From contig CAYPRT010000001.1 of NCBI GenBank assembly GCA_964413155.1, positions 102,702-166,701 on the forward strand: a stretch of 64,000 nucleotides of DNA, read 5' to 3'. Under the pieces are notes generated by a model. That model had not been told where the DNA came from and did no database searches. It saw only the letters and a list, made by a program, of their open reading frames with translations. Positions 4,475-53,646 of the stretch are shown piece by piece. Each line of letters begins with the position of its first letter. The first letter of the stretch is position 1. The position numbers and the translations under genes are program-made. This DNA comes from an uncultured Hyphomicrobiales bacterium (GTDB lineage: Bacteria; Bacteroidota; Ignavibacteria; Kapaibacteriales; UBA2268).

Positions 4475-5908
4475 TTAAAATCTATATGTAAATTGCAAGC
4501 CGATTTTAATCTGCGAAAGATTCAGTTTATAATTTTTGGCTGGGTCATCGTCGTCGGTTGGATAATTTGTTCGTAAAATTGAATTTGTAGTCAATTGAAA
4601 AGTAGGCTCCAATCGAACATTTGGGGCAACATAAATCGACATACCAAGAGAATAAATATATGTTGTTGCATTAGGTATATCAGCAGTATAAGGTGAAGTA
4701 ATTGAAGAAAAGCTTCCACGAAATTCGAATGGTAAAATTGGCGGGGAATATTGCACCCCGAAGCCCCATTGAACTTGACCAACCAATTCGCGAACAATGC
4801 GAGAATTTAACCTCTCTACTTCTGGTGGTGCATCCGTGAATCGGAGTTGAGTTACGTCAAAATACTCCACACCTGCGGCGAAAATGAAATCGATTACTTT
4901 TATTGAAACTCCTGCAGCGTAGACAAACGGCGTTGTAATTTTGTATGAGTTATATGAATTTTCAACAGGTTCATATGGATTGGGCTTCCAACCATCATCA
5001 AATTGTGCATATGCATCGCGGCGAAACTCCTCTTCTATCTGGTAGAACGTTGGGAATTTCACTGTTGCACCAAATCGAAAGAACTTCTCCAATGTTGCAA
5101 AAACTCCTACCGACCCAGAAATTCCCGATACCTTTTGAGAAAGATTTTCTTTCAAAGTGAAATTGTTAAAATCAATATTATTGTAATTGGCCGAATCGAA
5201 GTAATTGTATTTGTTTAATACATCTACTTCTTTGAACTCTCTATAATAAGTATACTTCCCAAACTTGCCCGATATGGATGCTCCAACTGAAACATTTTCT
5301 GCCACAGAAACTGCAAATCCACCAGTGACATTATGTAAGCCGCCATCTTCATTCACAAATACATTCTGTTGGACAGAATCCTTAATTGGAGTATAAAATT
5401 TGTCGTTTGCAAGCCATAAAAAGTATGGAATATTTGTATTTGTATCTTTTGGTCCAAATTTAGTAAGTGAATTAATAATGGAGCTTTTCGGATTAAAAGC
5501 GCTATAATCAAAGTAGTTCAGAAAGTTGTTTTCGTGGAAATAGCTAATACCCGCAACAACTTTGTTTTGAAACTCACTTACTGGAACTGCAAAACCAAAA
5601 TGGGTTACATAGCTTGAATTCGACCTTCTTTCCAAATTATTAAATAGATACTCTGTTTCGGCAATATTTCTTGTGAAACCCAAACCAATGGAAAGCTCAG
5701 ATTTCCCGATATATAAAATTCCTGCGGGATTGTAAATCAAACCTGAAATATCATCGGAAAGCCCATAGAACGCAACGCCAAAACTCGCAGAACGCGGAGT
5801 AATCATCGAATTCGGCATTGTATAGCGAAGAGCATCTTCAATAAATTGGGCTTTAATTGAAATAGTTGTAATTAACAAAGCTAAAGCAATTTTGAAAGGA
5901 AGTTTCAT
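4475..5908 (-). CDS. Outer-membrane beta-barrel transport protein, FadL/OmpP1/TodX-like (PorV superfamily)
   Basis: Signal peptide MKLPFKIALALLITTISIKAQ. N-terminal motif RSASFGVAFYGLSDDISGLIYNPAGIL resembles the FadL family. Beta-rich with C-terminal aromatic (..TYRF). Start moved to the internal ATG at 5908; the track's 5989 start is an in-frame upstream extension. Confidence 0.55.
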   Translation of the reverse strand: MKLPFKIALALLITTISIKAQFIEDALRYTMPNSMITPRSASFGVAFYGLSDDISGLIYNPAGILYIGKSELSIGLGFTRNIAETEYLFNNLERRSNSSYVTHFGFAVPVSEFQNKVVAGISYFHENNFLNYFDYSAFNPKSSIINSLTKFGPKDTNTNIPYFLWLANDKFYTPIKDSVQQNVFVNEDGGLHNVTGGFAVSVAENVSVGASISGKFGKYTYYREFKEVDVLNKYNYFDSANYNNIDFNNFTLKENLSQKVSGISGSVGVFATLEKFFRFGATVKFPTFYQIEEEFRRDAYAQFDDGWKPNPYEPVENSYNSYKITTPFVYAAGVSIKVIDFIFAAGVEYFDVTQLRFTDAPPEVERLNSRIVRELVGQVQWGFGVQYSPPILPFEFRGSFSSITSPYTADIPNATTYIYSLGMSIYVAPNVRLEPTFQLTTNSILRTNYPTDDDDPAKNYKLNLSQIKIGLQFTYRF

Positions 5909-5912
5909 AATA

Positions 5913-6647
5913 TTACCTTGGTCTTGTTGAACTTCTTTCTTGTTTTGTTGCTGGTTCAGCTTTTGGTGATTCCTTAATTTTTGGAGCATCCGACTTTGGT
6001 GAACTAACTTTTTGGGGTGACTTTTCCCTCAAAGGCTCATCACTTTCATTTGGTCTTACACTTTGCTTTTTCTGTTGTTCAGAACTGCGAGAAGAACTTC
6101 GCGACTCTTTTGTGGGCGATGTTCTATCATCGTATTCGTACCTACCGCGTGAGGGACCAAAATCTCGGACGGTTCGAACTTTGGGCTCGCGAGGTTCTTC
6201 AATTGGAACGTAAATTATATGATTTCTTCGATTCCACCAGTAATAATCCCAATAGGGATAGTGATAAACAACATAGTATTTTGAACGAGAATATTGCATA
6301 CAAACATACCTAAAATCCCAGAATGGGTCGTAATATGGACTCCCCATATACAAGAAAATATCAAAAGTATATGGGTCGTAAAAATCTACAAAACGTGGGT
6401 CATAAGGATAGGGATAATAGTTGTTATATATATAAATGTTTTGTTGCTCAATTTGTTTTTTTCTTTCGTAATCTACCTCATTGGGGGAAGCATAAATATA
6501 AGGTTTATCGTATTTCGATTTTTCTTTCTTTTTAACTTCGGGTACATTATTATAACCGAAGTAATCTTGTCGCGAGTTATTTGTTGAAACACAAGCAGAG
6601 AAAACCAAACTTAAAATGAAAGCCATTAAAAAAAGATTCCTTTTCAT
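5913..6647 (-). CDS. Lipoprotein with extreme Tyr/Pro/Asp/Trp-rich core and Ser/Lys/Glu/Pro-rich disordered tail; function unknown
   Basis: ATG at 6647 preceded by GGAGGG SD. Signal peptide plus lipobox (LVFSAC). Core contains YPYPYDPRFVDFYDPY...HYPYWDYYWW repeats. C-terminal ~80 aa is low-complexity S/K/E/P. A 4-bp gap to the downstream FadL-like gene implies co-transcription. Confidence 0.5.
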   Translation of the reverse strand: MKRNLFLMAFILSLVFSACVSTNNSRQDYFGYNNVPEVKKKEKSKYDKPYIYASPNEVDYERKKQIEQQNIYIYNNYYPYPYDPRFVDFYDPYTFDIFLYMGSPYYDPFWDFRYVCMQYSRSKYYVVYHYPYWDYYWWNRRNHIIYVPIEEPREPKVRTVRDFGPSRGRYEYDDRTSPTKESRSSSRSSEQQKKQSVRPNESDEPLREKSPQKVSSPKSDAPKIKESPKAEPATKQERSSTRPR

Positions 6648-13433: not shown

Positions 13434-13482
13434 AAAATAAATTTTGTATGTATAAAATTTGTTTCTTCAAAATGGAGGTTTT

Positions 13483-16020
13483 ATGAAAATCAGAAACTTC
13501 TTGTGGGGAGCGCTCATTTTGGTTCTTTCATTATCTCCACTTTTCGCGCAAAACCAAGCACCAAATCCACCGCGACAACTCATTGGTACCTCCTCTCCAA
13601 ATCCCGATGGAACTTACAATGTAAAGCTTAGTTGGTTCATCGACAAAGCAAATTATTCAAATTATGTATTCCCCGATGGATTTAATATCTACCAAACAAT
13701 TCTCCAAGGTGGCGTTGTCAAAAATACCCTCGTTGGTTCTATTAATTCTAATCCAAATCAATTTAGCTACGAATATATAATTACCAATCTTGCTCAAGGA
13801 ACCTATCAGTTTTATGTGACTTCCTTCAAAGGGAATGTACAAAGTCAACCGAGCAACAAAATTACTCTACAACTTTATAACGAGAATAAGTACTATATCA
13901 AAATTATTTCGCAACCTCCACTATATGCTTATGTTGGGAAAAAATATGTTTATCAAATCAAAGTCACAACAAATTTAGATTGCCCGATCGATGTTTTTGA
14001 ATTCGAAGGGGATGTTCCAGAAGGAATGACAATTTCTCCCACTGGCTTAATTGAATGGACACCCCAACAAACCGGTATTTACAAAATCGAAGTAAAAGCA
14101 GGGACTTCGTGCAAAGTAAATGTTGAAGCCGCAAGGCAAACTTTCAAAATACAAGTTCTTGATAGCGTACCACCTAACGAAAAACCTTATGTAAGAATCA
14201 TTAGTCAGCCACAAAATTTTGCAACTATTGGAATTCCTTGGGTATACAAAGTTATTACAGAAACAAATGTTTATTGTGTTGTTCGATACAAAATCTTAGA
14301 AACAGATATCCAAGATTTAGAAATTAATGAAGAAACAGGTTTAATCTCGTGGACACCCCAAAAACCTGGTGTTTACAATTTCACGGTTATGGCATATCTC
14401 CTTTGCGATGACAATGTTTATGATAAACAAAAAGTTACAATCAATGTTGAAGAAAACAATGCAAACAATAATTGTGTACATTTAGTTGGATACGCTTCGT
14501 TCGAGGATGGAACTCTTGTGCCCAACGGAGTTGCAATTGCTTGGAAATTAGATTCGGACAATAATCAAACAAACTCTAATTTTAAAACAACAATTCAGCA
14601 AGGATTCTTCCAATTCTTCTTGCCACCTGGGGTTTATGTTTTTGAGTTCAACGGGGAATTATTTGACCACCAATTTTATGATAAAGCAACTCGATTGTTG
14701 GACGCAACCAAAATTTCCCTTGATTGCGAAAAAACCCCAGAATTCACGTTAAAAGTAGTTTTAACAAAGAAAAATCCACCAGAACTTTACAAAGTTTCTG
14801 GCTATGTCTTGGATGCTAACGATAATTCGCCTGTGCCAGCAATGGTTGAATTTATCCCCGTTGAAATGCTATTCAAGCCCGGTAAATTGAATAACTACGG
14901 AGTTGTTCCTCGTTTTGTAACAAAGACCGATAATGAAGGGAAATATGAAATTGAATTACCTAACAACTTTGCATACATTGCCCATGCAATTCCACTTGAC
15001 AAAACTGCCTATGCCGACCAGTATTACCAACTTTCCTCTTCACCATATAATGCAGATATTATAGTGCTTGTAGAAGATTTAGAAGGTATCGACTTCCTGT
15101 TGAAACCACAAGAAAAATTCAATAATGGATTCGCTGGTATTGTTATCGATAAAGACAGAAATCCAATCGAATCGCGAGTAATCGCAATACTGGTAAAACC
15201 AAATGAGCCGGCAAATTACGCTCCAAATTCAACCATTAGAGTTGTTGAAACAGACCAACAAGGACATTTCTTATTCCAAAATTTGCCACCGGGAGAATAT
15301 GTGCTGCTTTCTATTCCAAAAGATCCCAAGTATGTTCCGGGGTATTATAAAATGAATGACTTTGCAACATTAAAATGGCGCGAAGCTACGCGAGTTGCTG
15401 TCGATAAAGTTATGATTCAAATAATTTATGAAATCAAACACAAAGAACTAAGTTCTTTGAAAGGCTTGGTTACATTCTGTGGCTATGTTGGCGAAGCTTC
15501 GGGAATTATGAAATCATTCGATAAACCACAAAGTTATCCGCCAATAGGAGAGTCACTGGTTTTGGCTTTGGATATTCAAGGAAATGTCATAAATTATACG
15601 TTGGCGGACAAAGATGGCTATTTCATTCTAGAAGAACTTCCTGCTGGTATGTTGAAACTATTGGTTTCGAAAGTAGGCTACAAAGACCTTGAAACCACAG
15701 TCGATGCTAATTTTGAAAATAACTCTTATTTATACTTTGAGTTTAATTTGGAAAAGGAAGTTTCTTCGGTCGAAATCGATAATAATTTGAACCTAATCGT
15801 ATCGCAAACAGAAGATTTCTTGCTACTCGAAACCACATCCGAAACAGAAATTCAAGCAGTTAAATTATTTGACCTTTATGGAAAATTAGTCGTATCTAAC
15901 GAAAACATTCAAGCTACATCAACTCGAATTCCAATTAATTCTATTTCGAGCGGCATTTACTTCATCAGTGTCGCAACAAACAAAGGCTTGTATTCTGGAA
16001 AAGTTTCAATCGTTCGTTGA
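13483..16020 (+). CDS. Large cell-surface protein: signal peptide, two tandem He_PIG-type putative Ig domains, CarboxypepD_reg-like repeats, T9SS C-terminal sorting domain
   Basis: ATG at 13483 with GGAGG SD 5 nt upstream; the track start at 13459 is an extension. Two ~90-aa repeats (IISQPPLYAYVGKKYVYQIKV...GLIEWTPQQTGIYKIEV and IISQPQNFATIGIPWVYKVI...GLISWTPQKPGVYNFTV). C-terminus ...SGIYFISVATNKGLYSGKVSIVR is typical of a T9SS CTD. Confidence 0.6.
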   Translation: MKIRNFLWGALILVLSLSPLFAQNQAPNPPRQLIGTSSPNPDGTYNVKLSWFIDKANYSNYVFPDGFNIYQTILQGGVVKNTLVGSINSNPNQFSYEYIITNLAQGTYQFYVTSFKGNVQSQPSNKITLQLYNENKYYIKIISQPPLYAYVGKKYVYQIKVTTNLDCPIDVFEFEGDVPEGMTISPTGLIEWTPQQTGIYKIEVKAGTSCKVNVEAARQTFKIQVLDSVPPNEKPYVRIISQPQNFATIGIPWVYKVITETNVYCVVRYKILETDIQDLEINEETGLISWTPQKPGVYNFTVMAYLLCDDNVYDKQKVTINVEENNANNNCVHLVGYASFEDGTLVPNGVAIAWKLDSDNNQTNSNFKTTIQQGFFQFFLPPGVYVFEFNGELFDHQFYDKATRLLDATKISLDCEKTPEFTLKVVLTKKNPPELYKVSGYVLDANDNSPVPAMVEFIPVEMLFKPGKLNNYGVVPRFVTKTDNEGKYEIELPNNFAYIAHAIPLDKTAYADQYYQLSSSPYNADIIVLVEDLEGIDFLLKPQEKFNNGFAGIVIDKDRNPIESRVIAILVKPNEPANYAPNSTIRVVETDQQGHFLFQNLPPGEYVLLSIPKDPKYVPGYYKMNDFATLKWREATRVAVDKVMIQIIYEIKHKELSSLKGLVTFCGYVGEASGIMKSFDKPQSYPPIGESLVLALDIQGNVINYTLADKDGYFILEELPAGMLKLLVSKVGYKDLETTVDANFENNSYLYFEFNLEKEVSSVEIDNNLNLIVSQTEDFLLLETTSETEIQAVKLFDLYGKLVVSNENIQATSTRIPINSISSGIYFISVATNKGLYSGKVSIVR

Positions 16021-38349: not shown

Positions 38350-38517
38350 TTTTGTCCAAAGAAAAAACACAAAAATAAATTAAAAAATTTTAATGAATTC
38401 GGTAAGAAATGACAATATTTTTTTTCCTTAATTGAAGAATGCAAATTAATAAAAATATTTTAGAAAAAATCAATTTGCTATTATTATTGTAAATTTGTTA
38501 ATTAATTGGAGGGAAAA

Positions 38518-41064
38518 ATGAAAAATATTTGTGTGATTTTCATTGTGGTAATTTTCATTGTTCACAACCTTTATTCAAAAGATGGAGATACAGTTAGGAT
38601 TAATACCATTCAATTTGGAAGCCCGAAATATGGTTGGTTCGAATTCCCAGACTCATCAAAAAAATTTCAAAAAATTTTGATGAACTATACTATTAAATGC
38701 CCTTGCGGGGAGTGGGACTATCTTGCTATGGTTTTTGTTAAACAATTTTTTGCTCCCAGCTTCCGAGTAGATAGCACAGTTTTGCCCGAATTTGCTTGTA
38801 TGTTCGACACATCATGGAATTACTCTGCCAAAGTTGAAAATGGGAAATTAGTAGTAGATTCCACACCAAAAAAGCCTCGCCTTTTAGAATTTTATTCCGA
38901 TAGCACCAATCCAACAATTCGAACATCTTATCGATATGTTTGGGATACCTACTACCGCTACGAATTCGACAAAAATGGTAATCCAATTGATTCATTTTTA
39001 GTCCAGCCCGACACTATTTTGTATTTAACAAAACGAAGAATTTATTTCGACGACCCAGTTGCAATTGCCGATAGGTATGAAATTATGCGATTTGTCACTC
39101 CATATGGGATTGGTTTAGATGTTGGTGATGGTTTCACATGGACAATGGACGTTACAGATTTTTGGCCATTACTTCAAGGAAAAGTATTCATTGACGCACC
39201 CAACCAGCAGGAAGCAATTCAAATCACATTTGATTTCATCGAAGGTGAACCAGAACGCGATATCATTCGATTTGAAAGAATTTATGATTTTATTGATGTT
39301 GTCTACGACAAAAATTTCGAAAAGAAAGTAGGCAAAATCCAAGTTCAAACCTCGCCTTCTACAGCAAAAATGTATAAATTAAAAGTAATTCAAACAGGTC
39401 ATGGATTCGGTGGCAATGATGATAATTGCTGCGAATTTTGTAAAAAAAATGCATATGTTAAAGTTAACGATACAATTCGCTACACACGTGAAGTATGGCG
39501 AATCTGCTCCGAAAATCCTCTCTACCCGCAAGGCGGAACCTGGTTGCTCAACCGAACCAACTGGTGTCCAGGCGCCGAAGTTCAACCCTTTGATTTCGAA
39601 CTTACTCCTTTCATTGGGAACTACCGCTCTTTTACTTTTGATTACGATATGGATTATTATGATAAACCATATTCATCGGGTAGCAATACAATTGGTCGTT
39701 GGATAATTACCGCTTATCTAATCGCTTACACCAACCTTAAGTTTAATTTAGATGCAGAAATTTATGATATTATTGCTCCAAGCAAAAAAGATGTTTATAA
39801 AAGAGTGAACCCAACTTCTACCCATCCAATTATAGTCATCAGAAATCGTGGTTCAGAAACTATTACAAAACTTAAACTAAAATATGGCATAGTTAATGCA
39901 AAAGAATATGTATACGAATGGTCTGGTGAAATTAAATCATTAGCTTCACAACAAATTACTCTTCCAAGTTTAGATTGTAGCGATTGGAAAAGCAATAGCA
40001 ACAAATTCAAAGTTGAAATTTTGGAAGTCAATGAGAAAAATGATGAATACACATCGAATAACATTGGTTATTCCGAATTTGTACCCCCAGCTTCGTTTTA
40101 TAACAATTTAATTATTAAAGTAAAAACTAACAATTTCAACGTTCTTTCCAACGACCCATTGGCTCAACCATATTCATACAAAATCCAGGATTCTAAGGAT
40201 AATGTAATACTTTCAAAGATAGGTTTGCTTCCTTCTACAACTTATAGCGATACTATAAATCTTGATGATGGATGTTACGAATTTTACTTCGAAAATCAAT
40301 TGGAGTGTGGGCTGGGTTTTTGGTTCTATAAACAATATTTAGGACTTAACGATGGACTATTGCAAATTTCCAGCGATAATTTGATTTTATTCCAACCTAA
40401 TATTGATTTTGGTCGTTCTCTCCACCAATTTTTTATCGCAGAAGACCAACCAACCATCAAGTTTTCTCCCGATACAATTAATTTCGGAGATGTTTCAATA
40501 ACTCAAACAACAACACAGAAAGCAATTATCAAACCTGCAAATCAGAAAGGTATTTCCCTGTGGAACTTCGATTTAGTTTTAGGTTCAACCAAAGGTTTTT
40601 CCATTGCAAAAATCGAACCTGACCCCGACCAGAGTGGCGTTTGGAACTTGTCCTATGGTGATTCAATCGTTGTTCATATTTCGTTCTCCCCAAAAAAAGT
40701 TGGTAAAACATCAACAAGTTTAACTTTTTTCACAAATGATAAGAAAAATGCTTCGGTTTCAATACCTATTAGAGCAAATGTTGTTTCGGAAAGTTATGTT
40801 GAAGATAATCCTGTTGCTCCATATATTGAACTGATAAACAATAAGAAAAACTTATATGTTTTTAATATTGATATACCAGAAAGTGAAATTCTAACTTGCA
40901 CTATTTATAATATCTTAGGAAAGTCAATTTCATCGGATGAAGTAAATCCTAGTTTACACAAATATTATGTAGATATGACAAGATTTGGTTCTGGCTGCTA
41001 TTGGATTACATTTCAAACCAATAGAAGAATTTTCGCTTTCCCTGTAGTTGTAATTAACGATTAA
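38518..41064 (+). CDS. Secreted multidomain protein: PNGase F-like N-terminal region, choice-of-anchor-D (ASH/Ig-like) domain, T9SS C-terminal sorting domain
   Basis: ATG 38518 with GGAGGG SD. Blocks recalled from Elizabethkingia PNGase F: CGEWDYLAMVFV (vs CDEWDRYANVYV), YEIMRFVTPYGIG (vs YEIGRFITPYWVG), MDVTDFWPLLQG (vs IDVTDFKSLLSG), NWCPGAEV (vs GWCPGMAV). ASH-like stretch FGDVSITQTTTQKAIIKPANQKGISLWNFDL...LTFFTND. C-terminal CTD ...CYWITFQTNRRIFAFPVVVIND. Confidence 0.55.
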   Translation: MKNICVIFIVVIFIVHNLYSKDGDTVRINTIQFGSPKYGWFEFPDSSKKFQKILMNYTIKCPCGEWDYLAMVFVKQFFAPSFRVDSTVLPEFACMFDTSWNYSAKVENGKLVVDSTPKKPRLLEFYSDSTNPTIRTSYRYVWDTYYRYEFDKNGNPIDSFLVQPDTILYLTKRRIYFDDPVAIADRYEIMRFVTPYGIGLDVGDGFTWTMDVTDFWPLLQGKVFIDAPNQQEAIQITFDFIEGEPERDIIRFERIYDFIDVVYDKNFEKKVGKIQVQTSPSTAKMYKLKVIQTGHGFGGNDDNCCEFCKKNAYVKVNDTIRYTREVWRICSENPLYPQGGTWLLNRTNWCPGAEVQPFDFELTPFIGNYRSFTFDYDMDYYDKPYSSGSNTIGRWIITAYLIAYTNLKFNLDAEIYDIIAPSKKDVYKRVNPTSTHPIIVIRNRGSETITKLKLKYGIVNAKEYVYEWSGEIKSLASQQITLPSLDCSDWKSNSNKFKVEILEVNEKNDEYTSNNIGYSEFVPPASFYNNLIIKVKTNNFNVLSNDPLAQPYSYKIQDSKDNVILSKIGLLPSTTYSDTINLDDGCYEFYFENQLECGLGFWFYKQYLGLNDGLLQISSDNLILFQPNIDFGRSLHQFFIAEDQPTIKFSPDTINFGDVSITQTTTQKAIIKPANQKGISLWNFDLVLGSTKGFSIAKIEPDPDQSGVWNLSYGDSIVVHISFSPKKVGKTSTSLTFFTNDKKNASVSIPIRANVVSESYVEDNPVAPYIELINNKKNLYVFNIDIPESEILTCTIYNILGKSISSDEVNPSLHKYYVDMTRFGSGCYWITFQTNRRIFAFPVVVIND

Positions 41065-42392: not shown

Positions 42393-42416
42393 AAGGGGCT
42401 TGGTTTCAAGCCCCTG
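42393..42416. terminator. Hairpin terminator (T-run on minus strand; may act bidirectionally)
   Basis: AGGGGCTTG-GTTT-CAAGCCCCT preceded by an A-run, which gives a U-run for the minus-strand DUF2721 transcript. Confidence 0.5.
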
Positions 42417-42431
42417 CGTTAATTAAGCTTG

Positions 42432-42896
42432 CTAACTTTTGATTTCCACAAGAGCAATTTTATAACCCCAGATAATTTCTCGTGCAAGGAAAATACTTCC
42501 AACAACAACCGATATCATTCCTGCAAGAAATAGTGCAAATATTAATATTCTTAAATCAATTAGAAATGCATAACTTACTCCGATTAACAAAGAAGTCAAC
42601 ACAAATAGAGCAACAGCAATAGTATACGACAAAACAGCTTGAACAATAAAAGGGATTCGGTGTTCGAAAAGCTCAAGCTGATGCTTAACCGAGTTCAGCC
42701 GAGATTGAATTTGCCCACTTGAAAGCTCTTCCTTTTCGCCTTCGAGCAATCTTCGTTTTTCATCGTTTAAATCACGGATTCTATCGACTACTGCTGAATA
42801 CTTATTGTTTGTGACAAGAAGCATTAATGAACACGCAGAAACCATAACACCCGGAGCTAGCATTGTTTGAATCAATTCTGCAATTGAAGGACTCAT
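42432..42896 (-). CDS. DUF2721-like two-TM membrane protein
   Basis: N-terminal motif LAPGVMVSACSLMLLVTNNKYSAVVDRIRDL, central coiled region, and a second TM pair resemble DUF2721. Confidence 0.45.
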   Translation of the reverse strand: MSPSIAELIQTMLAPGVMVSACSLMLLVTNNKYSAVVDRIRDLNDEKRRLLEGEKEELSSGQIQSRLNSVKHQLELFEHRIPFIVQAVLSYTIAVALFVLTSLLIGVSYAFLIDLRILIFALFLAGMISVVVGSIFLAREIIWGYKIALVEIKS

Positions 42897-42954
42897 TTTT
42901 TGTCACCAAAGTTGTAATCAAAATGTTGTTTGTCGATTTATTTTGTAATTTATT

Positions 42955-44280
42955 TTATCTTCGGAATGAAAAATAAGAACCAATTCCTAAACCAACAATT
43001 TCATCGAAACCACCAAATCCGGGATTGCGGTAATAAACAAAAGAAAGAAAAGTTTGCGAACTTGTGACAGTGTTACCTTCGAACTCGTCGTAGGAGATTT
43101 TGACAACATTTCCCTGGTCGTCCAATTTGCCGGTAGCATACAGGTAATTATGTCGGGCCCTTCGAATCCACTGTCGTAATTTATAAAGTCGTTCATTTTC
43201 ATCATAAAACATTTTCCAATCTTTGGAAGGTTGCCAATTATTAAATGAACCAACAAGAAATACTTCTTCGGATGTCTCCCAGCCTTCGGGGTCGAGAACA
43301 AATTCAAGATAAATGTAGTCATCGTAGCTCGGGGGAATAAAAGTTGTCACCAAAGCCCCATCGTCGTGCTGTTCGAAATAGCTTCCACGGCGACGAATAT
43401 CCGACATTGGGAGCCGAATTGGTGCGTTAATCGCAGGATACAATGCCAAATTCGATAAATCAAGGACTCGATATCCATTTTCGGCTGGGACTTCCCCGAT
43501 TCGAAAAACCTTTCCACTCGACAGAAACCCATATATTGAAGTCGAAAAATTATATTTATAGTATTCACTATTAAAAGAATACATTGAAACAACCAAAGGC
43601 TCGTACCAACGATGATTACGATAAAAAACCACCGAATGTAAGAAATTCTCAATCAGCTTTGCCCTTTGTGGGGCAGTTACAAGAGCTTCGATATCAAATG
43701 CAGAAGCTGTGACGTTGCGTCCGGGTTTGTAAAAATCCGAGTAAAACCTTAATTCCACATTTACAATTGGTTTTACAACAAAGAATCTGGCTTCAGCAAG
43801 AACTTGCTCTGGTTTTGAATAATCATACAATTTTATTTTCCAATTTCCAGAATATTTAAATTTTACCTGTTCGTTTGGAATTATTATTTTGCCACGAAAA
43901 TTATAGTACTTTGAACTAATTGGGGCAGATTCCCAAAAAATATTGCTCGTCCGATATGCTGTTGCTTCGTTTATAAAAATATTCTCGTCTTCTTTCCAAT
44001 CATATGAACAATGTACAAATCGAGCAAACATATTTGGAGGTACTCTACTTGCTACATCGAATTCGACAACGAGTTTTTCGCTTTGCAACCCAACAGAGTA
44101 TGCAGTTGTTTCATCATTAATTACAATAACTGGAGGGTCGAGCTCGCTTCTTTCACCATAAATTCTAATGAAACGAACAATAGGTTCCGAAAAGTTTGAA
44201 ATTATGTTAAGACTCTGACTTTCTTGGGAAAAAGCAAATGTAAAATTAAATAAAAGAATTAATGGAAAGTGAATTTTCAT
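42955..44280 (-). CDS. Secreted protein with DUF5103/T9SS-plug-like N-terminal region and C-terminal CBM48/AMPK-beta glycogen-binding-like (E-set) domain
   Basis: Signal peptide MKIHFPLILLFNFTFAFSQ (ATG 44280). C-terminal EVFLVGSFNNWQPSKDWKMFYDENERLYKL is an AMPK1_CBM-like motif. Start overlaps the stop of the upstream barrel gene (TAATG). Confidence 0.4.
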   Translation of the reverse strand: MKIHFPLILLFNFTFAFSQESQSLNIISNFSEPIVRFIRIYGERSELDPPVIVINDETTAYSVGLQSEKLVVEFDVASRVPPNMFARFVHCSYDWKEDENIFINEATAYRTSNIFWESAPISSKYYNFRGKIIIPNEQVKFKYSGNWKIKLYDYSKPEQVLAEARFFVVKPIVNVELRFYSDFYKPGRNVTASAFDIEALVTAPQRAKLIENFLHSVVFYRNHRWYEPLVVSMYSFNSEYYKYNFSTSIYGFLSSGKVFRIGEVPAENGYRVLDLSNLALYPAINAPIRLPMSDIRRRGSYFEQHDDGALVTTFIPPSYDDYIYLEFVLDPEGWETSEEVFLVGSFNNWQPSKDWKMFYDENERLYKLRQWIRRARHNYLYATGKLDDQGNVVKISYDEFEGNTVTSSQTFLSFVYYRNPGFGGFDEIVGLGIGSYFSFRR

Positions 44281-44951
44281 TACCAAGAAAACCTATAAAG
44301 TAATCCCAAGCCTAACCAAAAAATCGACGGATTATGTTTGCTCGAAATGCTTTGTTTTTGCAAACTAGTTTCAAAACCAACCAATGGGTCGCTGGCAGGA
44401 TATTCTGAATAAATACTCTTCAAGGGATATCTAATTTGTGCGCCTAAAAAAATTGTATTTACTGAATCAGCATAAACAGAAATTGTATAACCTAAATGAA
44501 CATCGAAAACCCACGACAAATTATCTTTGGGTAATTTCTCTTGAAATTTTCCAGAAATAGGATATAGAAATCCAAAGCCAAAGGTGAAATTGTTAAAAGT
44601 TGAAACCAAATCGAAAGGAATGTAATTAATTGTAAAATCAAATGAGTTTCCATTAGGAATGAACTCAGGTGATAAATTATCCAATTCGATAGAATAACTT
44701 TTCGAAACAAACCCAGTTTGAATTCCTAAAAAAACAGAAGAATCAATTGCTTTATTGAAAGATATGAAGAAACTAGGGATTTTCCCTAAAGCAGGCAAAT
44801 TTTTTCTTCCAGGGGTAGAAACAAAATTAATTCCTAAACTTCCAAAAGTTGAAAACGAAAGAGAATAAGAAGGTGGGGAAGAAATTAACGACATTTCTTC
44901 CCCAAAAAGAAAACTGAATAGAAACAAAGTAACAATACAAAACTTTTTCAT
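44280..44951 (-). CDS. Small outer-membrane beta-barrel protein (PorT/OMP_b-brl_2-like)
   Basis: Signal peptide MKKFCIVTLFLFSFLFG. Alternating amphipathic beta-strands, 223 aa, C-terminal aromatic (RFSW). Confidence 0.45.
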   Translation of the reverse strand: MKKFCIVTLFLFSFLFGEEMSLISSPPSYSLSFSTFGSLGINFVSTPGRKNLPALGKIPSFFISFNKAIDSSVFLGIQTGFVSKSYSIELDNLSPEFIPNGNSFDFTINYIPFDLVSTFNNFTFGFGFLYPISGKFQEKLPKDNLSWVFDVHLGYTISVYADSVNTIFLGAQIRYPLKSIYSEYPASDPLVGFETSLQKQSISSKHNPSIFWLGLGLLYRFSW

Positions 44952-44958
44952 TTTTGTA

Positions 44959-46998
44959 TTAATTAATATATTTCAAAGCTTCCTCGGCAGCATCAATCAA
45001 TGGTTTAGGAGAAATATCTGAACCAACCGCATTTTTCATCCAAAAGCTGGGAGTTAATCTTCCTTGTGTAAGAATACGATATATTTCATTTGCAAAATCT
45101 TTACCTTCAAGATACTTTTCGATTTGAAATTCAATCAAATGGCCCAGCGGGTAGGCTGGCAAATACAAAGGATAGTCAATCATATGGGAATAAATAGCCA
45201 ATATTGGTTCGTCCTTTTTACCAAAAACCGGAGCATAATATTTGTTCCATACTTCTTTTGCAATGCGGACCACAGCATTTTTAAGTTCTTCGGCATTAGC
45301 ATTTGGATTCTTGTACATCCAATTCCAAACATACATATCAACAAGAGCAACACCCATAATCTCGTAGGAAGCCCAGAAATTATCCAGTGCAGTTAAATAC
45401 TTGCTCATTGGGTCAGGATTTTTAATTCCAAGTAAATCAAGATCTCTTTTTTGGAAAATAAACGCCATTGCTTCGGTAAAAGCTGTATTTGGAACCCCAG
45501 AAAGCATATAATAATCAACTTTTTGCAATGTCAACGTTTGCTCCACGTTGTGACCAAATTCGTGAATAGCAATGTTATAACCTTTGTAATCCATACCATC
45601 CTTACCAATTCGAGTACGAAGGTGTGCTTTTTCGCTACGCATTTGAGCTCCCCAAGCGTGACCAGCACCACGAGCTGGGTCGACTTCAACTTTGGAGGCA
45701 ATGAAATTTGCAAGTTCATTCGAGAATCCAAGTTTCATCAAAATATTTGGTAAGTCGGCAGCAAATGCCTCGTTATTGGGATATTTTTGTCGAGTGATTT
45801 CACTCAATTTACCTTCGTCCATAGTGCTTCGTGCTTTAAACCCATCGTACCAAATATCGAAAGGCTCAAGAGGTCGATTTAATCGTTTCTGTATCAAATC
45901 CGCAACTTTTTTCACTGTTTCGGATGAAAGCAATTCCACAAATAGACGTTCAATTTCGCCTTCAGAAATTTCAAATTCTAAATCGAATTTTCTGCTTATG
46001 TATGTTGGATATTCAGGATAAAACTTATCCACTGCTTTACGCACGAGAAAATTATCCAATAGATACTGATAGCGAGTATTTGGTTCTGATTTAAATGGAA
46101 CTTCCTTGTTTTCTTTGTATACTTTATTCTTGAAAGGATTCCACTGGTACTCGGGATTATTTATAACTTGCTGGGGAATAGTTTGAAAAATTATATGCTT
46201 CATCACTTCGTAAATCATCTTTTGTTTGAATAATCCATCGTCCTTGCCATATTGCGATTTAATTTCATCGCGCAAGTTCCAATGTGAAATCAGCTTTTTC
46301 TCTTTAGGAAAGTATGTTCTAAAAGCATCGTCGACAAGGTTGCCAACATATATGTTATATTGCGAGATGTACGAATCTGCTTTAGTTGTAACTTCAGAAA
46401 TCTTTTGCAAATATTCGCTTGGGACACGCGAAGTAAAAATGTCACCCATACGAGCATAAGCCCATTGTTTGCGTGTCCATTTACTTCCTTGCTCGTTCTT
46501 TTCTTTCAAGGAGAAGTTTGGAAAATTCAAATTCACATAGAAAGCAATCTTATTTTTAAAGAAATCATTAATCAGATTCGCAGAAGGATCGTAACCGGCA
46601 AACATCAAGTCGATTGGATAAATTTCGCCAAGGTCCAGATGAAGCTGGCGATTTAATTCAAGTGTAATCTTATTGAAATGCCCACCAATTACTTCGAAAT
46701 AATTAGAAAGGCGGTTAAAAATTACATCCAAAGTATCACCTTGGGGAACAAAGTTATTAAAGCAGAAGTCAAAAAAGTCTTTCTTGCTTCCATCTTCTTC
46801 TGTCCAAAAATTTGCCATTTGGTTGATACTTTTTTCGATGCGAAAACGCTCGGTTTCGCCATACTTTTGAACTAACGCTTTGATAGTCTTTTGAATAGTT
46901 GCTTTGTCGATAAATTTCTTCATTTCCTGTTCTTTGTTAGTTGTGCAAAAAGTAAAAAGAAAAATAGAAAAAACCAGAAACACAAAAGTGTTTTTCAT
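44959..46998 (-). CDS. Lipoprotein HExxH zinc metallopeptidase (M3-like oligopeptidase candidate)
   Basis: ATG at 46998; the track extension to 47052 was rejected. Signal plus lipobox FLFTFC. HEFGHNVEQ motif. ~680 aa, typical of M3 oligopeptidases. Confidence 0.5.
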   Translation of the reverse strand: MKNTFVFLVFSIFLFTFCTTNKEQEMKKFIDKATIQKTIKALVQKYGETERFRIEKSINQMANFWTEEDGSKKDFFDFCFNNFVPQGDTLDVIFNRLSNYFEVIGGHFNKITLELNRQLHLDLGEIYPIDLMFAGYDPSANLINDFFKNKIAFYVNLNFPNFSLKEKNEQGSKWTRKQWAYARMGDIFTSRVPSEYLQKISEVTTKADSYISQYNIYVGNLVDDAFRTYFPKEKKLISHWNLRDEIKSQYGKDDGLFKQKMIYEVMKHIIFQTIPQQVINNPEYQWNPFKNKVYKENKEVPFKSEPNTRYQYLLDNFLVRKAVDKFYPEYPTYISRKFDLEFEISEGEIERLFVELLSSETVKKVADLIQKRLNRPLEPFDIWYDGFKARSTMDEGKLSEITRQKYPNNEAFAADLPNILMKLGFSNELANFIASKVEVDPARGAGHAWGAQMRSEKAHLRTRIGKDGMDYKGYNIAIHEFGHNVEQTLTLQKVDYYMLSGVPNTAFTEAMAFIFQKRDLDLLGIKNPDPMSKYLTALDNFWASYEIMGVALVDMYVWNWMYKNPNANAEELKNAVVRIAKEVWNKYYAPVFGKKDEPILAIYSHMIDYPLYLPAYPLGHLIEFQIEKYLEGKDFANEIYRILTQGRLTPSFWMKNAVGSDISPKPLIDAAEEALKYIN

Positions 46999-47065
46999 AT
47001 TTCCACCAAAGATTTTAAAATAAATACAAAAATAAAAAATGTTGAGGTTCAAACGAAATATATTT

Positions 47066-47141
47066 TGGGCGAGCTACGGGATTCGAACCCGTGACCCTCA
47101 GAGCCACAATCTGATGCTCTGCCAGCTGAGCTAAGCTCGCC
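47066..47141 (-). tRNA. tRNA-His (anticodon GTG) with genomically encoded G-1 and CCA
   Basis: Minus-strand reading G-GCGAGCT..TCAGA-TTGTGGC-TCTGA..GGGTTCGAATCCCGT-AGCTCGC-C-CA. Cloverleaf stems all pair, anticodon loop TTGTGGC, and the extra 5' G pairs with discriminator C73. Confidence 0.9.
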
Positions 47142-47329
47142 ATATATTCAGATACAAAATTAACAAAATTTAACTAATTCGGAAAATATTAATTAGGATT
47201 TTGTTGGAAGGAAGTTAAACCAGTATATTACAACTCAAAGTTTCAAGTCTTTCTAATCAATGTTAATCCGATAAAATTTTTTAATTTTGTAACTTATTTT
47301 TTTGAAAGCAATAAATTTTGGAGTCGAAA

Positions 47330-47485
47330 ATGAAGAGAACATATCAACCAAGTAGACGACACCGACTTAATACACACGGGTTTCGCGCTCGAATGGCAAC
47401 CAAAGATGGCAGGAAAGTCTTAGCTCGGCGGCGAGCAAAAGGTCGCTATAAGCTAACAGTTTCCGACGAAAAGAAAAAATATTAA
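47330..47485 (+). CDS. rpmH: 50S ribosomal protein L34
   Basis: [57 protein letters not shown]. Too short for the ORF track. Confidence 0.9.
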
Positions 47486-47496
47486 TCTAAATTTTT

Positions 47497-47910
47497 GTGA
47501 AATACAAACTTGAAACAATTAAACGGCAAAAAGAATTTGAGTTCTTATTTGAAAATGGAAGAAGGTTTTCTTCTGGTAGCCTTCGAGCAGTTGTTTTGCC
47601 TAAAGCAGAAACTGAACTTGAAAACGAAAAATACACTATTCGCTATGCTGTTCAAGTTAGCAGAAAGGTAACTAAAAAAAGTGTTGTTAGAAATAGAATC
47701 AAAAGATTGCTACGTGAATCACTCAGAAAACTCGCAAAAGAAGAGATGAAGGACAAAATTTTCATTTTTAAATATATTTTTCTTAACTGGCTTACTGCCC
47801 CAAAACGTCCGTGCGAGATTCATCTTTCCGATGTTTATCCATTCACATACTCTGTTCTATACGAAGCCTACCTTTATTTCGCAAAAAATGATAAAGGTGA
47901 GCAAAAATGA
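47497..47910 (+). CDS. rnpA: Ribonuclease P protein component
   Basis: Immediately downstream of rpmH. RnpA-like basic motif ([15 protein letters not shown]). GTG start, no ATG available. Confidence 0.8.
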
Positions 47911-52377: not shown

Positions 52378-53646
52378 ATGAAAAGGCTTATTTTGTTATT
52401 AACTATAGCCTTCTCTATAACTTTTTGCTCAACATTGCTTGCTATTGAAGACAATAAAAATGAAGATATCTATCGTAAGGTAATCTTAGCAACTGGTATG
52501 AACGATATTGCAAATATTGCAAAACTCGATATAATCCCTAAACTTCGCTTTCTACTCTTTACACTACCCGACAGCGTTTGGGGAAAATACGAAATTGAAT
52601 ATGATTCAGCTAAACTCTATATGGAAATTAGTAAAAATCTGCAAAGTCACTTTTCCCCTCAAGAAGCACAAAAATACTATCATATGGCTCAAATTCTTTT
52701 AGAAGATTTTACAGATACTTCTTATTCTAAATTCGAGTACTTTCTTTCAAAGATGGATTCATTGGATTTGGTCAAGGCCGAAACGGATTCTTTGATTGAT
52801 AAACCAAGAAAAGAAATTTTGGAACTCGAAAGAAATTTCTTTAATAAACTTATCGATTCATTAAAAATCAAACTATTTTTCAAAATTGATACAATTAGGA
52901 TTCGACCACTTACAGAAGACAAAATCCTAAAAAATGATTTTTGTGACTCTCTTCGAACAGTCTTTCATAATTTGGATTCTCTTCTTTTAAAGTACTTTGG
53001 AATAAGTTTAAAATGGGATTCCTTGCGGAAAGAATTCTATCTTTTTCCACCATATCAAAGCGATACATTTAACTTTGAATTAAAGTTACCCGATACTTTA
53101 ATCTTCCGAGAAAGGAAAATTTTCCCCGACAGTGCAACAAAATTCTTATTCTTAGATACTTCCAATTTTATATTCAACCTAAAGGAATTAGAGAATTATT
53201 CCAAAAAACTTAAAGAATATTCAAATTTATTAAATGAATATTTCAAACTTTGGGAATTGTATATTGACTCGCTATCAAGTTACTATCGAAATTCATTTGA
53301 ATTGTTGAGGAAGTTTTCTTCCAATGAGTCGAAAAATAAAGAGACAGAAAAAGAACTTGAAAAATTAACCAAAGAATTCGAACAATTTTACAAAAGTCTT
53401 TTAGAAGAGTATAAGAATCTATTGAAAAAATACAAGTATGAATTAGAAATCAATAAAGAATTGCTGAATAAAGAGATTGAAAAATGGAATTTTGACCTTG
53501 GTTCACAACTTGGTTTACAAATCGACGAGTTAAAGAGATTAATGCAAAAACACAAAGAATTCATTGAAGATTTAAGCAAAATGAAAAAGCAAATAGAGAT
53601 TGAAATCTTAAACGACCTCAAAAACCGAGGTTATATCAATGAATAA
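52378..53646 (+). CDS. Hypothetical secreted coiled-coil protein, 422 aa
   Basis: Signal peptide MKRLILLLTIAFSITFCSTLLA. C-terminal third is K/E-rich heptad-like (ELEKLTKEFEQFYKSLLEEYKNLLKKYKYELEINKELL...). ATG directly abuts the mntP stop. Confidence 0.4.
   Translation: MKRLILLLTIAFSITFCSTLLAIEDNKNEDIYRKVILATGMNDIANIAKLDIIPKLRFLLFTLPDSVWGKYEIEYDSAKLYMEISKNLQSHFSPQEAQKYYHMAQILLEDFTDTSYSKFEYFLSKMDSLDLVKAETDSLIDKPRKEILELERNFFNKLIDSLKIKLFFKIDTIRIRPLTEDKILKNDFCDSLRTVFHNLDSLLLKYFGISLKWDSLRKEFYLFPPYQSDTFNFELKLPDTLIFRERKIFPDSATKFLFLDTSNFIFNLKELENYSKKLKEYSNLLNEYFKLWELYIDSLSSYYRNSFELLRKFSSNESKNKETEKELEKLTKEFEQFYKSLLEEYKNLLKKYKYELEINKELLNKEIEKWNFDLGSQLGLQIDELKRLMQKHKEFIEDLSKMKKQIEIEILNDLKNRGYINE

What the first reader, a model, noticed from the sequence alone, without database searches (positions are those of the whole stretch)
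42432..47141. Minus-strand operon next to tRNA-His: HExxH lipoprotein peptidase, PorT-like beta-barrel, plug-like protein with CBM48-like domain, DUF2721; candidate T9SS accessory locus
Four co-oriented genes have tight junctions: 8-bp gap, 1-nt TAATG overlap, 58-bp gap. (1) A 680-aa lipoprotein with HEFGH. (2) A 223-aa outer-membrane beta-barrel of PorT/OMP_b-brl_2 size. (3) A 441-aa secreted protein whose N-terminal region resembles the DUF5103 'T9SS plug' first domain and whose C-terminus is an AMPK-beta/CBM48-like glycogen-binding module. (4) A DUF2721 membrane protein. T9SS cargo proteins occur elsewhere in the window, so this may be a secretion-associated or surface-processing module. 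Its position directly 3' of tRNA-His is a classic integration hotspot, although no integrase or direct repeat was found.
Basis: partly seen in the sequence, partly recalled or inferred. Interest (0 to 1): 0.5.

Follow-up and report, generated by a model that had tools for sequence, protein, structure and literature searches.

The report
T9SS Plug gene among envelope genes
This is an ordinary, vertically inherited string of cell-envelope genes in a Kapaibacteria-like genome: one is a genuine type IX secretion "Plug" gene, but the four genes are not a dedicated secretion module and not a mobile island.

Summary
The four co-oriented minus-strand genes and their tight junctions are real; the first gap is 7 nt, not 8, and gene 1 is 679 aa.

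- **Gene 3** is a full-length homologue of the T9SS Plug. It passes PF17116, scores 97.8 against a cut-off of 100 on NCBIfam T9SS_plug, and matches PDB 6h3j_C "Plug" at 7.5e-13 with a profile. The "CBM48 module" is a faint local motif (VFxVGSFNNW) that belongs to the Plug family's own C-terminal domain.
- **Gene 4** is DUF2721.
- **Gene 2** is an 8-stranded outer-membrane barrel from a small, fast-evolving family. It has no PorT support.

Synteny argues against a T9SS accessory locus. The peptidase sits beside plug in only one narrow clade (3 of 55 species loci), and DUF2721 only in near relatives. The barrel recurs upstream of plug, but as part of a bamD-barrel-plug block. That block is one variant of a commoner arrangement in which bamD lies upstream of plug.

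The tRNA-His is a conserved partner of the peptidase in six relatives. There is no tRNA repeat, integrase or composition anomaly, so the island idea is refuted.

The parts
47067..47140 (-). tRNA-His (anticodon GTG), 68 nt upstream of the peptidase start and co-oriented with it
   Evidence: ARAGORN. The same tRNA-His sits directly upstream of the peptidase homologue in L001, L007, L008, L010, L012 and L078.
44959..46998 (-). 679-aa lipoprotein, a putative zinc oligopeptidase or carboxypeptidase. It has the ACE/M3/M32 (clan MA) fold, with HEFGH at 479-483 and Glu509.
44280..44951 (-). 223-aa secreted protein, an 8-stranded outer-membrane beta-barrel of a small unannotated family. Its stop overlaps the plug start (TAATG).
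42955..44280 (-). 441-aa T9SS Plug homologue (DUF5103 / T9SS_plug), a secreted periplasmic protein
   Evidence: PF17116 scores 55.4 bits (cut-off 23.9). NF052315 T9SS_plug scores 97.8 bits (cut-off 100) over profile positions 20-384 of 385. PDB 4r7f_A matches at 9e-16 and 6h3j_C 'Plug' at 1.7e-6, both full length. With profile A1 these become 3e-20 and 7.5e-13.
42432..42896 (-). 154-aa DUF2721 membrane protein. It is an incidental neighbour that travels with purD, not with plug.
   Evidence: PF11026 scores 86.3 bits. In L010 it lies about 2 kb downstream of plug, with two unrelated ORFs in between, but still next to purD. It is replaced by a LigT-family gene in L001 (same contig as L011). L012 has a similar-sized 182-aa ORF in that position, not annotated here.
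42394..42415 (-). GC-rich hairpin plus T-run, the likely terminator of the gene string. It lies between the convergent DUF2721 and purD genes.
   Evidence: Terminator scan: 9 pairs, 6 of them GC, then TTTTTATTT. Sequence read.

Best explanation
The region is a vertically inherited chromosomal string of envelope genes in a Kapaibacteria-like (FCB group) genome. It reads tRNA-His, then lipoprotein metallopeptidase, then small outer-membrane barrel, then T9SS Plug, then DUF2721. It is probably transcribed in one direction and ended by the hairpin at 42415-42394.

Only the Plug is a T9SS part. By homology to Fjoh_1759/PG2092, it is exported to the periplasm and seals the periplasmic mouth of the SprA/Sov translocon when the PorV carrier is not bound. 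This stops leakage through the idle pore.

The barrel gene is translationally coupled to plug. It is a remnant of an older bamD-barrel-plug arrangement still found in other Kapabacteria. It is most likely a surface-exposed small outer-membrane protein whose link to plug comes from shared descent and co-expression, not from a shown partnership.

The peptidase has a closed-channel ACE/M3/M32-type fold. It therefore most likely trims or degrades short peptides in the periplasm or at the outer membrane, as a general housekeeping enzyme. It came to lie next to plug in one clade only.

DUF2721 is an unrelated inner-membrane neighbour.

Shown here: the gene identities, the folds and the synteny pattern. 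Inferred: co-transcription, Plug function, the peptidase substrate class and the barrel's role.
For: **Plug identity.** establish it. The function comes from the literature: Plug seals the quiescent translocon (PMC10994853); Sov binds either Plug or PorV (PMC8754138); a plug mutant shows no secretion or gliding defect and the protein prevents leakage (PMC9127263).

**Housekeeping flanks.** purD, rpmH-rnpA-yidD-yidC and recA/recX flank the region, and the same order occurs in L007-L009.

**Uniform composition.** GC is uniform. GC3 and codon usage fall within the range of neighbouring genes.

**Conserved tRNA-His.** It sits upstream of the peptidase in six relatives.

**Synteny over 55 GTDB species plug loci with at least 2.5 kb upstream.**
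- Peptidase upstream of plug: 3 loci.
- Barrel upstream of plug: 6 loci.
- bamD upstream of plug: 24 loci.
- None of these: 27 loci.

**Peptidase without plug.** It stands alone in Bacteroidales and another lineage. It lies about 30 kb from plug on one contig at 77% identity.

**Barrel contexts.**
- bamD-barrel-plug in L015/L084, L016, L017 and L019.
- bamD-barrel-transaldolase in L080.
- bamD-barrel in L082.
- No plug nearby in L083/L085, L086 and L087.

**Folds.**
Against: - The barrel-to-plug junction is tight in every lineage that has both genes: a 1-nt overlap (window, L010), a 4-nt overlap (L017, L078), a 7-8 nt gap (L015, L016) and a 43-nt gap (L019). The pair also survived rearrangement of both flanks. 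That is more than expected for a purely incidental neighbour.
- The peptidase-plug pair persists across the clade even where the barrel was lost (L001, L012).
- Co-transcription was not measured, and the promoter scan does not cover FCB-type promoters.
- Only loci were examined, not whole genomes, so co-occurrence of the peptidase family with T9SS could not be tested.
Confidence: 0.65

Rival explanations
1. The small barrel is a real, lineage-specific partner of the Plug or translocon. Translationally coupled synthesis would give matched amounts, and the barrel might dock or park Plug at the outer membrane, or help it engage SprA. In this reading bamD-barrel-plug is a functional envelope operon.
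For: Barrel-to-plug junctions run from an overlap of 4 nt to a gap of 43 nt in all seven independent lineages that carry both. The pair is kept in two different flanking contexts, tRNA-His-peptidase and bamD. All 10 barrel-family ORFs found inside plug loci lie directly upstream of plug and are co-oriented with it.
Against: The sample is biased, because those loci were chosen for having plug. Sampling from the barrel side, only 3 of about 8 independent lineages have plug next door. Of 55 plug loci, 49 lack the barrel, including close relatives L001 and L012 that lost it cleanly. No small barrel is known in solved SprA or BAM complexes of Flavobacterium (PMC10994853, PMC12611786). Relaxed constraint, with dN/dS of 0.26, fits a surface protein better than a machine subunit.
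Confidence: 0.15
2. One reading: a T9SS accessory or surface-processing module. The lipoprotein peptidase would process or clear T9SS cargo or cleaved C-terminal signal domains, and the barrel would act like PorT.
For: There is local co-orientation and tight spacing with a genuine Plug gene. The peptidase-plug pair is kept in the clade L001, L007-L010, L012 and L078. The named homologues in the list come from FCB-group bacteria, which carry T9SS. T9SS cargo genes occur in the window.
Against: Peptidase-plug adjacency is limited to 3 of 55 species loci and breaks already at 77% peptidase identity. The peptidase stands alone in Bacteroidales and other lineages. There is no PorT profile support. 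The ACE/M3/M32 fold restricts substrates to short unfolded peptides (established knowledge of these families), which suits general peptide turnover. DUF2721 follows purD, not plug.
Confidence: 0.1
3. The four genes are a genomic island integrated at tRNA-His.
For: The genes lie next to the 3' end of a tRNA gene. In L001 a restriction-modification system sits next to the same tRNA, so the neighbourhood can vary.
Against: There is no second copy of the tRNA 3' end within 3 mismatches anywhere in the window. No meaningful direct repeats were found. No integrase was found among the called ORFs. GC, GC3 and codon usage match the flanks. The tRNA-peptidase pair is conserved in six relatives. The variable DNA in L001 is on the other (5') side of the tRNA.
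Confidence: 0.02

Closest known systems
T9SS Plug protein (Fjoh_1759 of Flavobacterium johnsoniae, PDB 6h3j chain C; PG2092/PGN_0144 of Porphyromonas gingivalis; Pfam PF17116, NCBIfam NF052315)
   Same: Full-length sequence homology, similar size (441 against 419 aa) and a signal peptide. It shares the N-terminal T9SS_plug_1st domain and the C-terminal domain with the GSFNNW-type motif.
   Different: Only about 22-25% identical to Bacteroidia Plugs. It falls 2.2 bits short of the NCBIfam equivalog cut-off. It comes from the Kapaibacteria/Ignavibacteria branch, where no T9SS has been studied. Here it is translationally coupled to a small outer-membrane protein gene.
Clan MA oligopeptidases and carboxypeptidases with the ACE/neurolysin fold: M3 (PepF, Dcp, neurolysin), M32 (Taq-type carboxypeptidases), M2 (ACE/ACE2)
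   Different: Sequence identity is 9-15%. No Pfam M2/M3/M32 profile is matched by any of the 38 members tested. It is a lipoprotein with a nearly invariant Cys18. It is about 100-180 residues longer than PepF or M32. The family is unnamed in the libraries searched.
Small 8-stranded outer-membrane barrels (OmpA N-domain, NspA, OmpW, PagL; NCBIfam TDE1717 family)
   Same: Fold and size, a signal peptide and a C-terminal aromatic beta-signal. Of 41 family members, 11 give weak TDE1717-family hits.
   Different: The window protein itself has no profile match, and the family has its own motifs (GRKN, DPL, NPR). It is not PorT/SprT by any test run. Its genomic habit of sitting after bamD and/or before plug is not described for the known families.
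PorT/SprT (T9SS outer-membrane protein)
   Same: Similar length and a predicted outer-membrane barrel.
   Different: No detectable sequence or profile relationship. No evidence of a T9SS role.

Membership tests
T9SS Plug (PF17116 / NF052315) | Pfam T9SS_plug_1st domain above the gathering score | tested here: met
   55.4 bits against 23.9; residues 65-171
T9SS Plug (PF17116 / NF052315) | NCBIfam equivalog model above its curated cut-off | tested here: inconclusive
   97.8 bits against a cut-off of 100, E 7e-28, covering profile positions 20-384 of 385. This is just below the line, as expected for a distant branch.
T9SS Plug (PF17116 / NF052315) | Full-length homology to the structurally defined Plug of the SprA complex | tested here: met
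   6h3j_C matches at E 1.7e-6 (single sequence, residues 74-433 to 59-411) and at 7.5e-13 with profile A1. 4r7f_A matches at 3e-20.
T9SS Plug (PF17116 / NF052315) | Binds SprA/Sov and closes its periplasmic opening | not testable with these tools
   Needs biochemistry or cryo-EM. No sprA gene lies in the 64-kb window.
T9SS Plug (PF17116 / NF052315) | The host organism has a T9SS | tested here: met
   The cargo protein at 13459-16020 carries Por_Secre_tail at 31.6 bits (cut-off 27). Core T9SS genes were not seen in the window.
PorT/SprT-like barrel (PF13568 OMP_b-brl_2) | Profile match to the family | tested here: not met
   No Pfam hit at E<=1 for the window protein. Only 1 of 41 family members hits PF13568, at E 0.002.
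PorT/SprT-like barrel (PF13568 OMP_b-brl_2) | Small outer-membrane beta-barrel fold | tested here: met
CBM48 / AMPK1_CBM glycogen-binding module | Pfam PF16561 or PF16760 above the gathering score | tested here: not met
   12.5 bits against 26.8, and 13.4 against 27.6, both over only 23-45 residues. The Plug profile gives local hits to an amylase N-domain (8e-5) and to the AMPK beta2 CBM (0.14) over about 15-30 residues. The same region aligns with the Plug C-terminal domain.
DUF2721 (PF11026) | Pfam model above the gathering score | tested here: met
   86.3 bits against 28.3; residues 12-143
Clan MA gluzincin with ACE/M3/M32 fold | HExxH plus a downstream Glu ligand, conserved across the family | tested here: met
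   H479, E480, H483 and E509 are invariant in 38 sequences.
Clan MA gluzincin with ACE/M3/M32 fold | Two-lobed all-alpha fold shared by M2, M3 and M32 | tested here: met
Clan MA gluzincin with ACE/M3/M32 fold | Membership of family M2, M3 or M32 by sequence profile | tested here: not met
   No hit to those Pfam models for any of 38 members. Only sub-threshold zinc-motif hits appear, with Reprolysin_3 in 18 of 38. PDB sequence and profile searches were empty.
Clan MA gluzincin with ACE/M3/M32 fold | Zinc-dependent peptidase activity | not testable with these tools
   Needs an enzyme assay.
tRNA-integrated genomic island | Direct repeat of the tRNA 3' end at the far boundary | tested here: not met
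   The 23-nt 3' end occurs once in the window with up to 3 mismatches allowed. No relevant direct repeats were found.
tRNA-integrated genomic island | Integrase, atypical composition, or variable presence in relatives | tested here: not met
   No integrase ORF. GC is 0.32-0.39 throughout. GC3 and codon usage are within the range of flanking genes. The block is conserved next to the tRNA in six relatives.
TDE1717-family outer-membrane barrel (NF049866) | NCBIfam profile match | tested here: inconclusive
   The window protein has no hit. Of 41 family members, 11 hit weakly, with a best E of 1.5e-6.

The most novel reading that the evidence does not exclude
bamD, then small barrel, then plug was an ancestral envelope operon of Kapabacteria. 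The small barrel would be an unrecognised outer-membrane partner that docks or delivers the Plug to the SprA translocon, or links translocon gating to the BAM machinery. The window would preserve the barrel-plug half of that operon with translational coupling.
Probability: 0.12. Interest if true: 0.55.

Novelty: new member of a known kind. Interest (0 to 1): 0.25.

Why it matters
**Limited value for T9SS biology.** The Plug is a known, non-essential component, and the cluster does not define a new module.

**Two by-products worth recording**
- A very large family of about 680-aa lipoproteins has an ACE/M3/M32 fold and intact zinc-site residues. No model exists for it in the Pfam or NCBIfam copies searched. 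It is a candidate new peptidase family of the FCB group.
- In Kapabacteria the plug gene habitually follows bamD (24 of 55 species loci), sometimes with a small barrel gene in between. T9SS has never been studied outside Bacteroidia, so these neighbourhoods give cheap, testable candidates for lineage-specific translocon or outer-membrane-biogenesis partners.

Tried and rejected
- **Genomic island at tRNA-His.** Rejected after the repeat search, the composition and codon analysis, and the tRNA check in relatives.
- **PorT identity for the barrel.** Rejected: no profile support. A PDB sequence search with the family profile found nothing.
- **An independent CBM48 module.** Rejected: the region is part of the Plug family's own C-terminal domain.
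- **Peptidase as M2, M3 or M32 by sequence.** Not supported. Only the fold relationship holds.
- **"The barrel is always next to plug."** First suggested by 10 of 10 hits in plug-centred loci. Sampling from the barrel side corrected this.
- **Downstream genes of plug in other lineages.** By their sequences (my reading, not profile-scanned) they look like ruvB, a Gfo/Idh/MocA-type oxidoreductase, carbonic anhydrase and a Kdo-transferase-like gene. I judged them unrelated.
- **Searches that failed.**
  - Metagenome scans with alignments A2 and A4 failed because no stretch was conserved enough. A narrower alignment, A5, returned only 7 loci.
  - The afdb50 fold library was unavailable.
  - The sigma-70 promoter scan found no more sites than in shuffled sequence, and FCB promoters are not covered, so transcription units remain inferred.


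Full report
**Observation**

ARAGORN places one tRNA-His (GTG) at 47067-47140 on the minus strand. Reading that strand gives four co-oriented genes:
- A 679-aa lipoprotein, with ATG at 46998 and stop at 44959. The signal peptide MKNTFVFLVFSIFLFTFC ends in a Cys that is nearly invariant in the family.
- A 7-nt gap.
- A 223-aa ORF at 44951..44280.
- A TAATG stop/start overlap.
- A 441-aa ORF at 44280..42955.
- A 58-nt gap.
- A 154-aa ORF at 42896..42432.
- A strong hairpin plus T-run at 42415..42394, facing the convergent purD gene.

All four are real genes. Against the relative L007, dN/dS is 0.05, 0.26, 0.07 and 0.09, compared with 0.08-0.10 for purD and yidC.

**Gene identities**

*Gene 3 is a T9SS Plug homologue.*
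- Pfam T9SS_plug_1st scores 55.4 bits against a cut-off of 23.9.
- The NCBIfam T9SS_plug equivalog scores 97.8 bits against 100, over the whole model.
- Full-length matches to PDB 4r7f_A (9e-16) and to 6h3j_C, the Plug of the F. johnsoniae SprA complex (1.7e-6).
- A profile of 26 homologues improves these to 3e-20 and 7.5e-13.

The supposed CBM48 module gave only sub-threshold Pfam hits of 12.5 and 13.4 bits. The Plug profile does give faint local hits to an amylase N-domain (8e-5) and to the AMPK beta2 CBM (0.14), at the invariant VFxVGSFNNW motif. The same 120 residues, however, align end to end with the C-terminal domain of the solved Plug. The resemblance is therefore a property of the Plug family itself, not an added module.

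*Gene 4 is DUF2721*, at 86.3 bits.

*Gene 1 has no Pfam, NCBIfam or PDB sequence match*.
Sources label the members "hypothetical". Members are about 60% identical even in Bacteroidales MAGs.
- H479, E480, H483 and E509 are invariant.
- The AF2 model is confident, with pLDDT 90.8.
- It matches ACE/ACE2 (M2), Pz-peptidase A/PepF (M3B) and M32 carboxypeptidases with Foldseek, at about E 1e-8 and TM 0.45-0.57.
- It is therefore a distant, unclassified member of the clan MA group with the ACE/neurolysin fold. From established knowledge of those families, they act on short peptides inside a closed channel.

*Gene 2 had only two hits in the word-indexed search*. Exhaustive phmmer found 41 full-length representatives with shared motifs.
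- No Pfam family covers them.
- Of the 41, 11 give weak hits to the NCBIfam TDE1717 outer-membrane barrel family.
- Nothing ties it to PorT.

**Organism and flanks**

The nearest homologues come from Candidatus Kapaibacterium/Kapaibacteriota and Ignavibacteria MAGs. The flanks are housekeeping genes: purD on one side; rpmH-rnpA-yidD-yidC and then recX/recA on the other. The rest of the window holds metH, atpD, groEL, guaB and similar genes.

GC is 0.32-0.39 throughout. GC3 and codon usage of the four genes fall within the range of their neighbours. The barrel is the lowest, at GC3 0.25, but this resembles recX and rnpA.

**Synteny**

Close relatives (L007, L008, L009) have the same four genes in the same place.

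I scanned one genome per GTDB species with the Plug profile, which gave 68 loci. I then searched these with tblastn and HMMs. Among the 55 loci with at least 2.5 kb of upstream sequence:
- The peptidase lies upstream of plug in 3 (L010, L011, L012). All have plug identity of at least 69%.
- The barrel lies upstream in 6.
- bamD (PF13525) lies upstream in 24.
- None of these is present in 27.

Other observations on the peptidase:
- In a genome with 77% peptidase identity, the two genes are about 30 kb apart on one contig.
- In Bacteroidales and another lineage the peptidase stands alone.
- L078 adds one more peptidase-barrel-plug lineage.

DUF2721 follows purD rather than plug. In L010 two other ORFs separate it from plug. 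In L001, which is the same contig as L011, a LigT-family gene takes its place. L012 has a similar-sized 182-aa ORF there that I did not annotate.

**The barrel and bamD**

In L015/L084, L016, L017 and L019 the order is bamD, barrel, plug. In most other Kapabacteria the order looks like bamD, a roughly 160-aa ORF, plug, then a ruvB-like gene. The 160-aa ORF looks like an acyl-CoA thioesterase from its sequence; neither it nor the ruvB-like gene was profile-scanned.

Sampling from the barrel side gives mixed contexts:
- bamD-barrel-transaldolase in L080.
- bamD-barrel in L082.
- Barrel-plug in L078 and L084.
- No plug nearby in L083/L085, L086 and L087. Tandem barrel pairs occur in L087-L089.

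The barrel is therefore not an obligate plug neighbour. Where both occur, though, the junction is always tight: from a 4-nt overlap to a 43-nt gap. The pair has also survived a change of both flanks. A neighbour-joining tree shows plug-adjacent members scattered through the family. That pattern fits an old arrangement with repeated loss.

**tRNA-His**

The same tRNA lies directly upstream of the peptidase, co-oriented, in L001, L007, L008, L010, L012 and L078. It is absent next to the peptidase or plug where the pair is broken.

The tRNA 3' end has no second copy in the window. No meaningful direct repeats flank the block. No integrase ORF is present. The island idea is refuted.

**Mechanism**

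From the literature:
- Plug binds the SprA/Sov translocon in place of PorV and seals the idle pore (PMC10994853; PMC8754138).
- Its loss causes no secretion or gliding defect (PMC9127263).

I infer the same role here. The peptidase is most likely a general oligopeptidase or carboxypeptidase anchored to a membrane by its lipid. The barrel is most likely a surface-exposed small outer-membrane protein, a reading that fits its faster evolution. DUF2721 is an unrelated membrane protein.

Known Flavobacterium SprA and BAM complexes contain no small 8-stranded barrel. A partner role for the barrel therefore remains a minority hypothesis, at about 0.15.

**Verdict**

The locus is an ordinary conserved gene string that includes a known T9SS component. 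It also contains two unannotated protein families of known structural kinds. Interest is low to moderate.

Noticed in passing
L015-L017, L019, L021, L024-L026, L029-L035, L037, L038, L040, L042, L044, L048, L049, L051, L052, L054 (about 0.1-1.5 kb upstream of plug): In Kapabacteria/Ignavibacteria-type genomes the plug gene habitually follows bamD (PF13525), co-oriented. This holds in 24 of 55 species loci. A roughly 160-aa ORF (thioesterase-like by its sequence, not profile-scanned) or the small barrel usually lies in between, and a ruvB-like gene often lies downstream.
   Followed up: partly
It is very conserved, at about 60% identity between Kapaibacteria and Bacteroidales. It has no Pfam or NCBIfam model and is labelled hypothetical everywhere, which makes it a candidate new clan MA peptidase family.
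   Followed up: partly
L008 12719-14180 (GCA_037440445.1): In this 95%-identical relative the plug gene carries a 127-bp tandem duplication that breaks the frame, giving ORFs of 317 and 150 aa. The duplication is absent from L009, which encodes the identical peptidase protein. It is either an assembly artefact or a recent inactivation of plug.
   Followed up: partly
L001 2404-7604 (CP058732.1): A restriction-modification gene pair (N6_Mtase/Methylase_S and HSDR_N/ResIII helicase) lies on the 5' side of the same tRNA-His. In the window, rpmH-rnpA-yidC lies there instead. The variable DNA is therefore on the other side of the tRNA from the four genes.
   Followed up: no
L087 3619-5218; L088; L089: A divergent branch of the barrel family occurs as tandem pairs, one of about 265-295 aa followed by one of about 214 aa. 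No plug was found in the sequence held for these loci.
   Followed up: no
L055, L057, L060 (upstream of plug); L046, L053: Other putative outer-membrane barrel genes sit directly upstream of plug in further lineages. One is a DUF1207-family protein (23.6 bits against a cut-off of 22). Another is a protein of about 150-190 aa ending in ...GYGF with no Pfam match. Different outer-membrane protein families thus recur at this position.
   Followed up: partly
L085 1301-4702: A barrel-family gene lies near two large PPIC-type rotamase (SurA/PpiD-like) genes. Only the first was confirmed by Pfam; the second looks similar by eye. This is another context of outer-membrane-protein biogenesis for the family.
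   Followed up: no
window 38506-41064 (+): An 852-aa protein has PNGase F-like domains (N-glycanase_C at 67 bits), an Ig-like domain and a weak T9SS C-terminal sorting domain (20.6 bits against a cut-off of 27). It is a probable T9SS-secreted glycanase two genes downstream of the locus, beyond purD.
   Followed up: partly
window 4475-5989 (-) and 52378-53646 (+): Two sizeable ORFs, of 504 and 422 aa, have no Pfam match at E<=1e-5.
   Followed up: no
window 47141-47500: The rpmH-rnpA-yidD-yidC cluster (identified from the Pfam annotation of the syntenic loci L007/L008 and from reading the window sequence) diverges from the tRNA-His-peptidase string across an AT-rich spacer of about 200 nt. Cumulative GC skew shows no turn here, so there is no sign of a replication origin.
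   Followed up: partly
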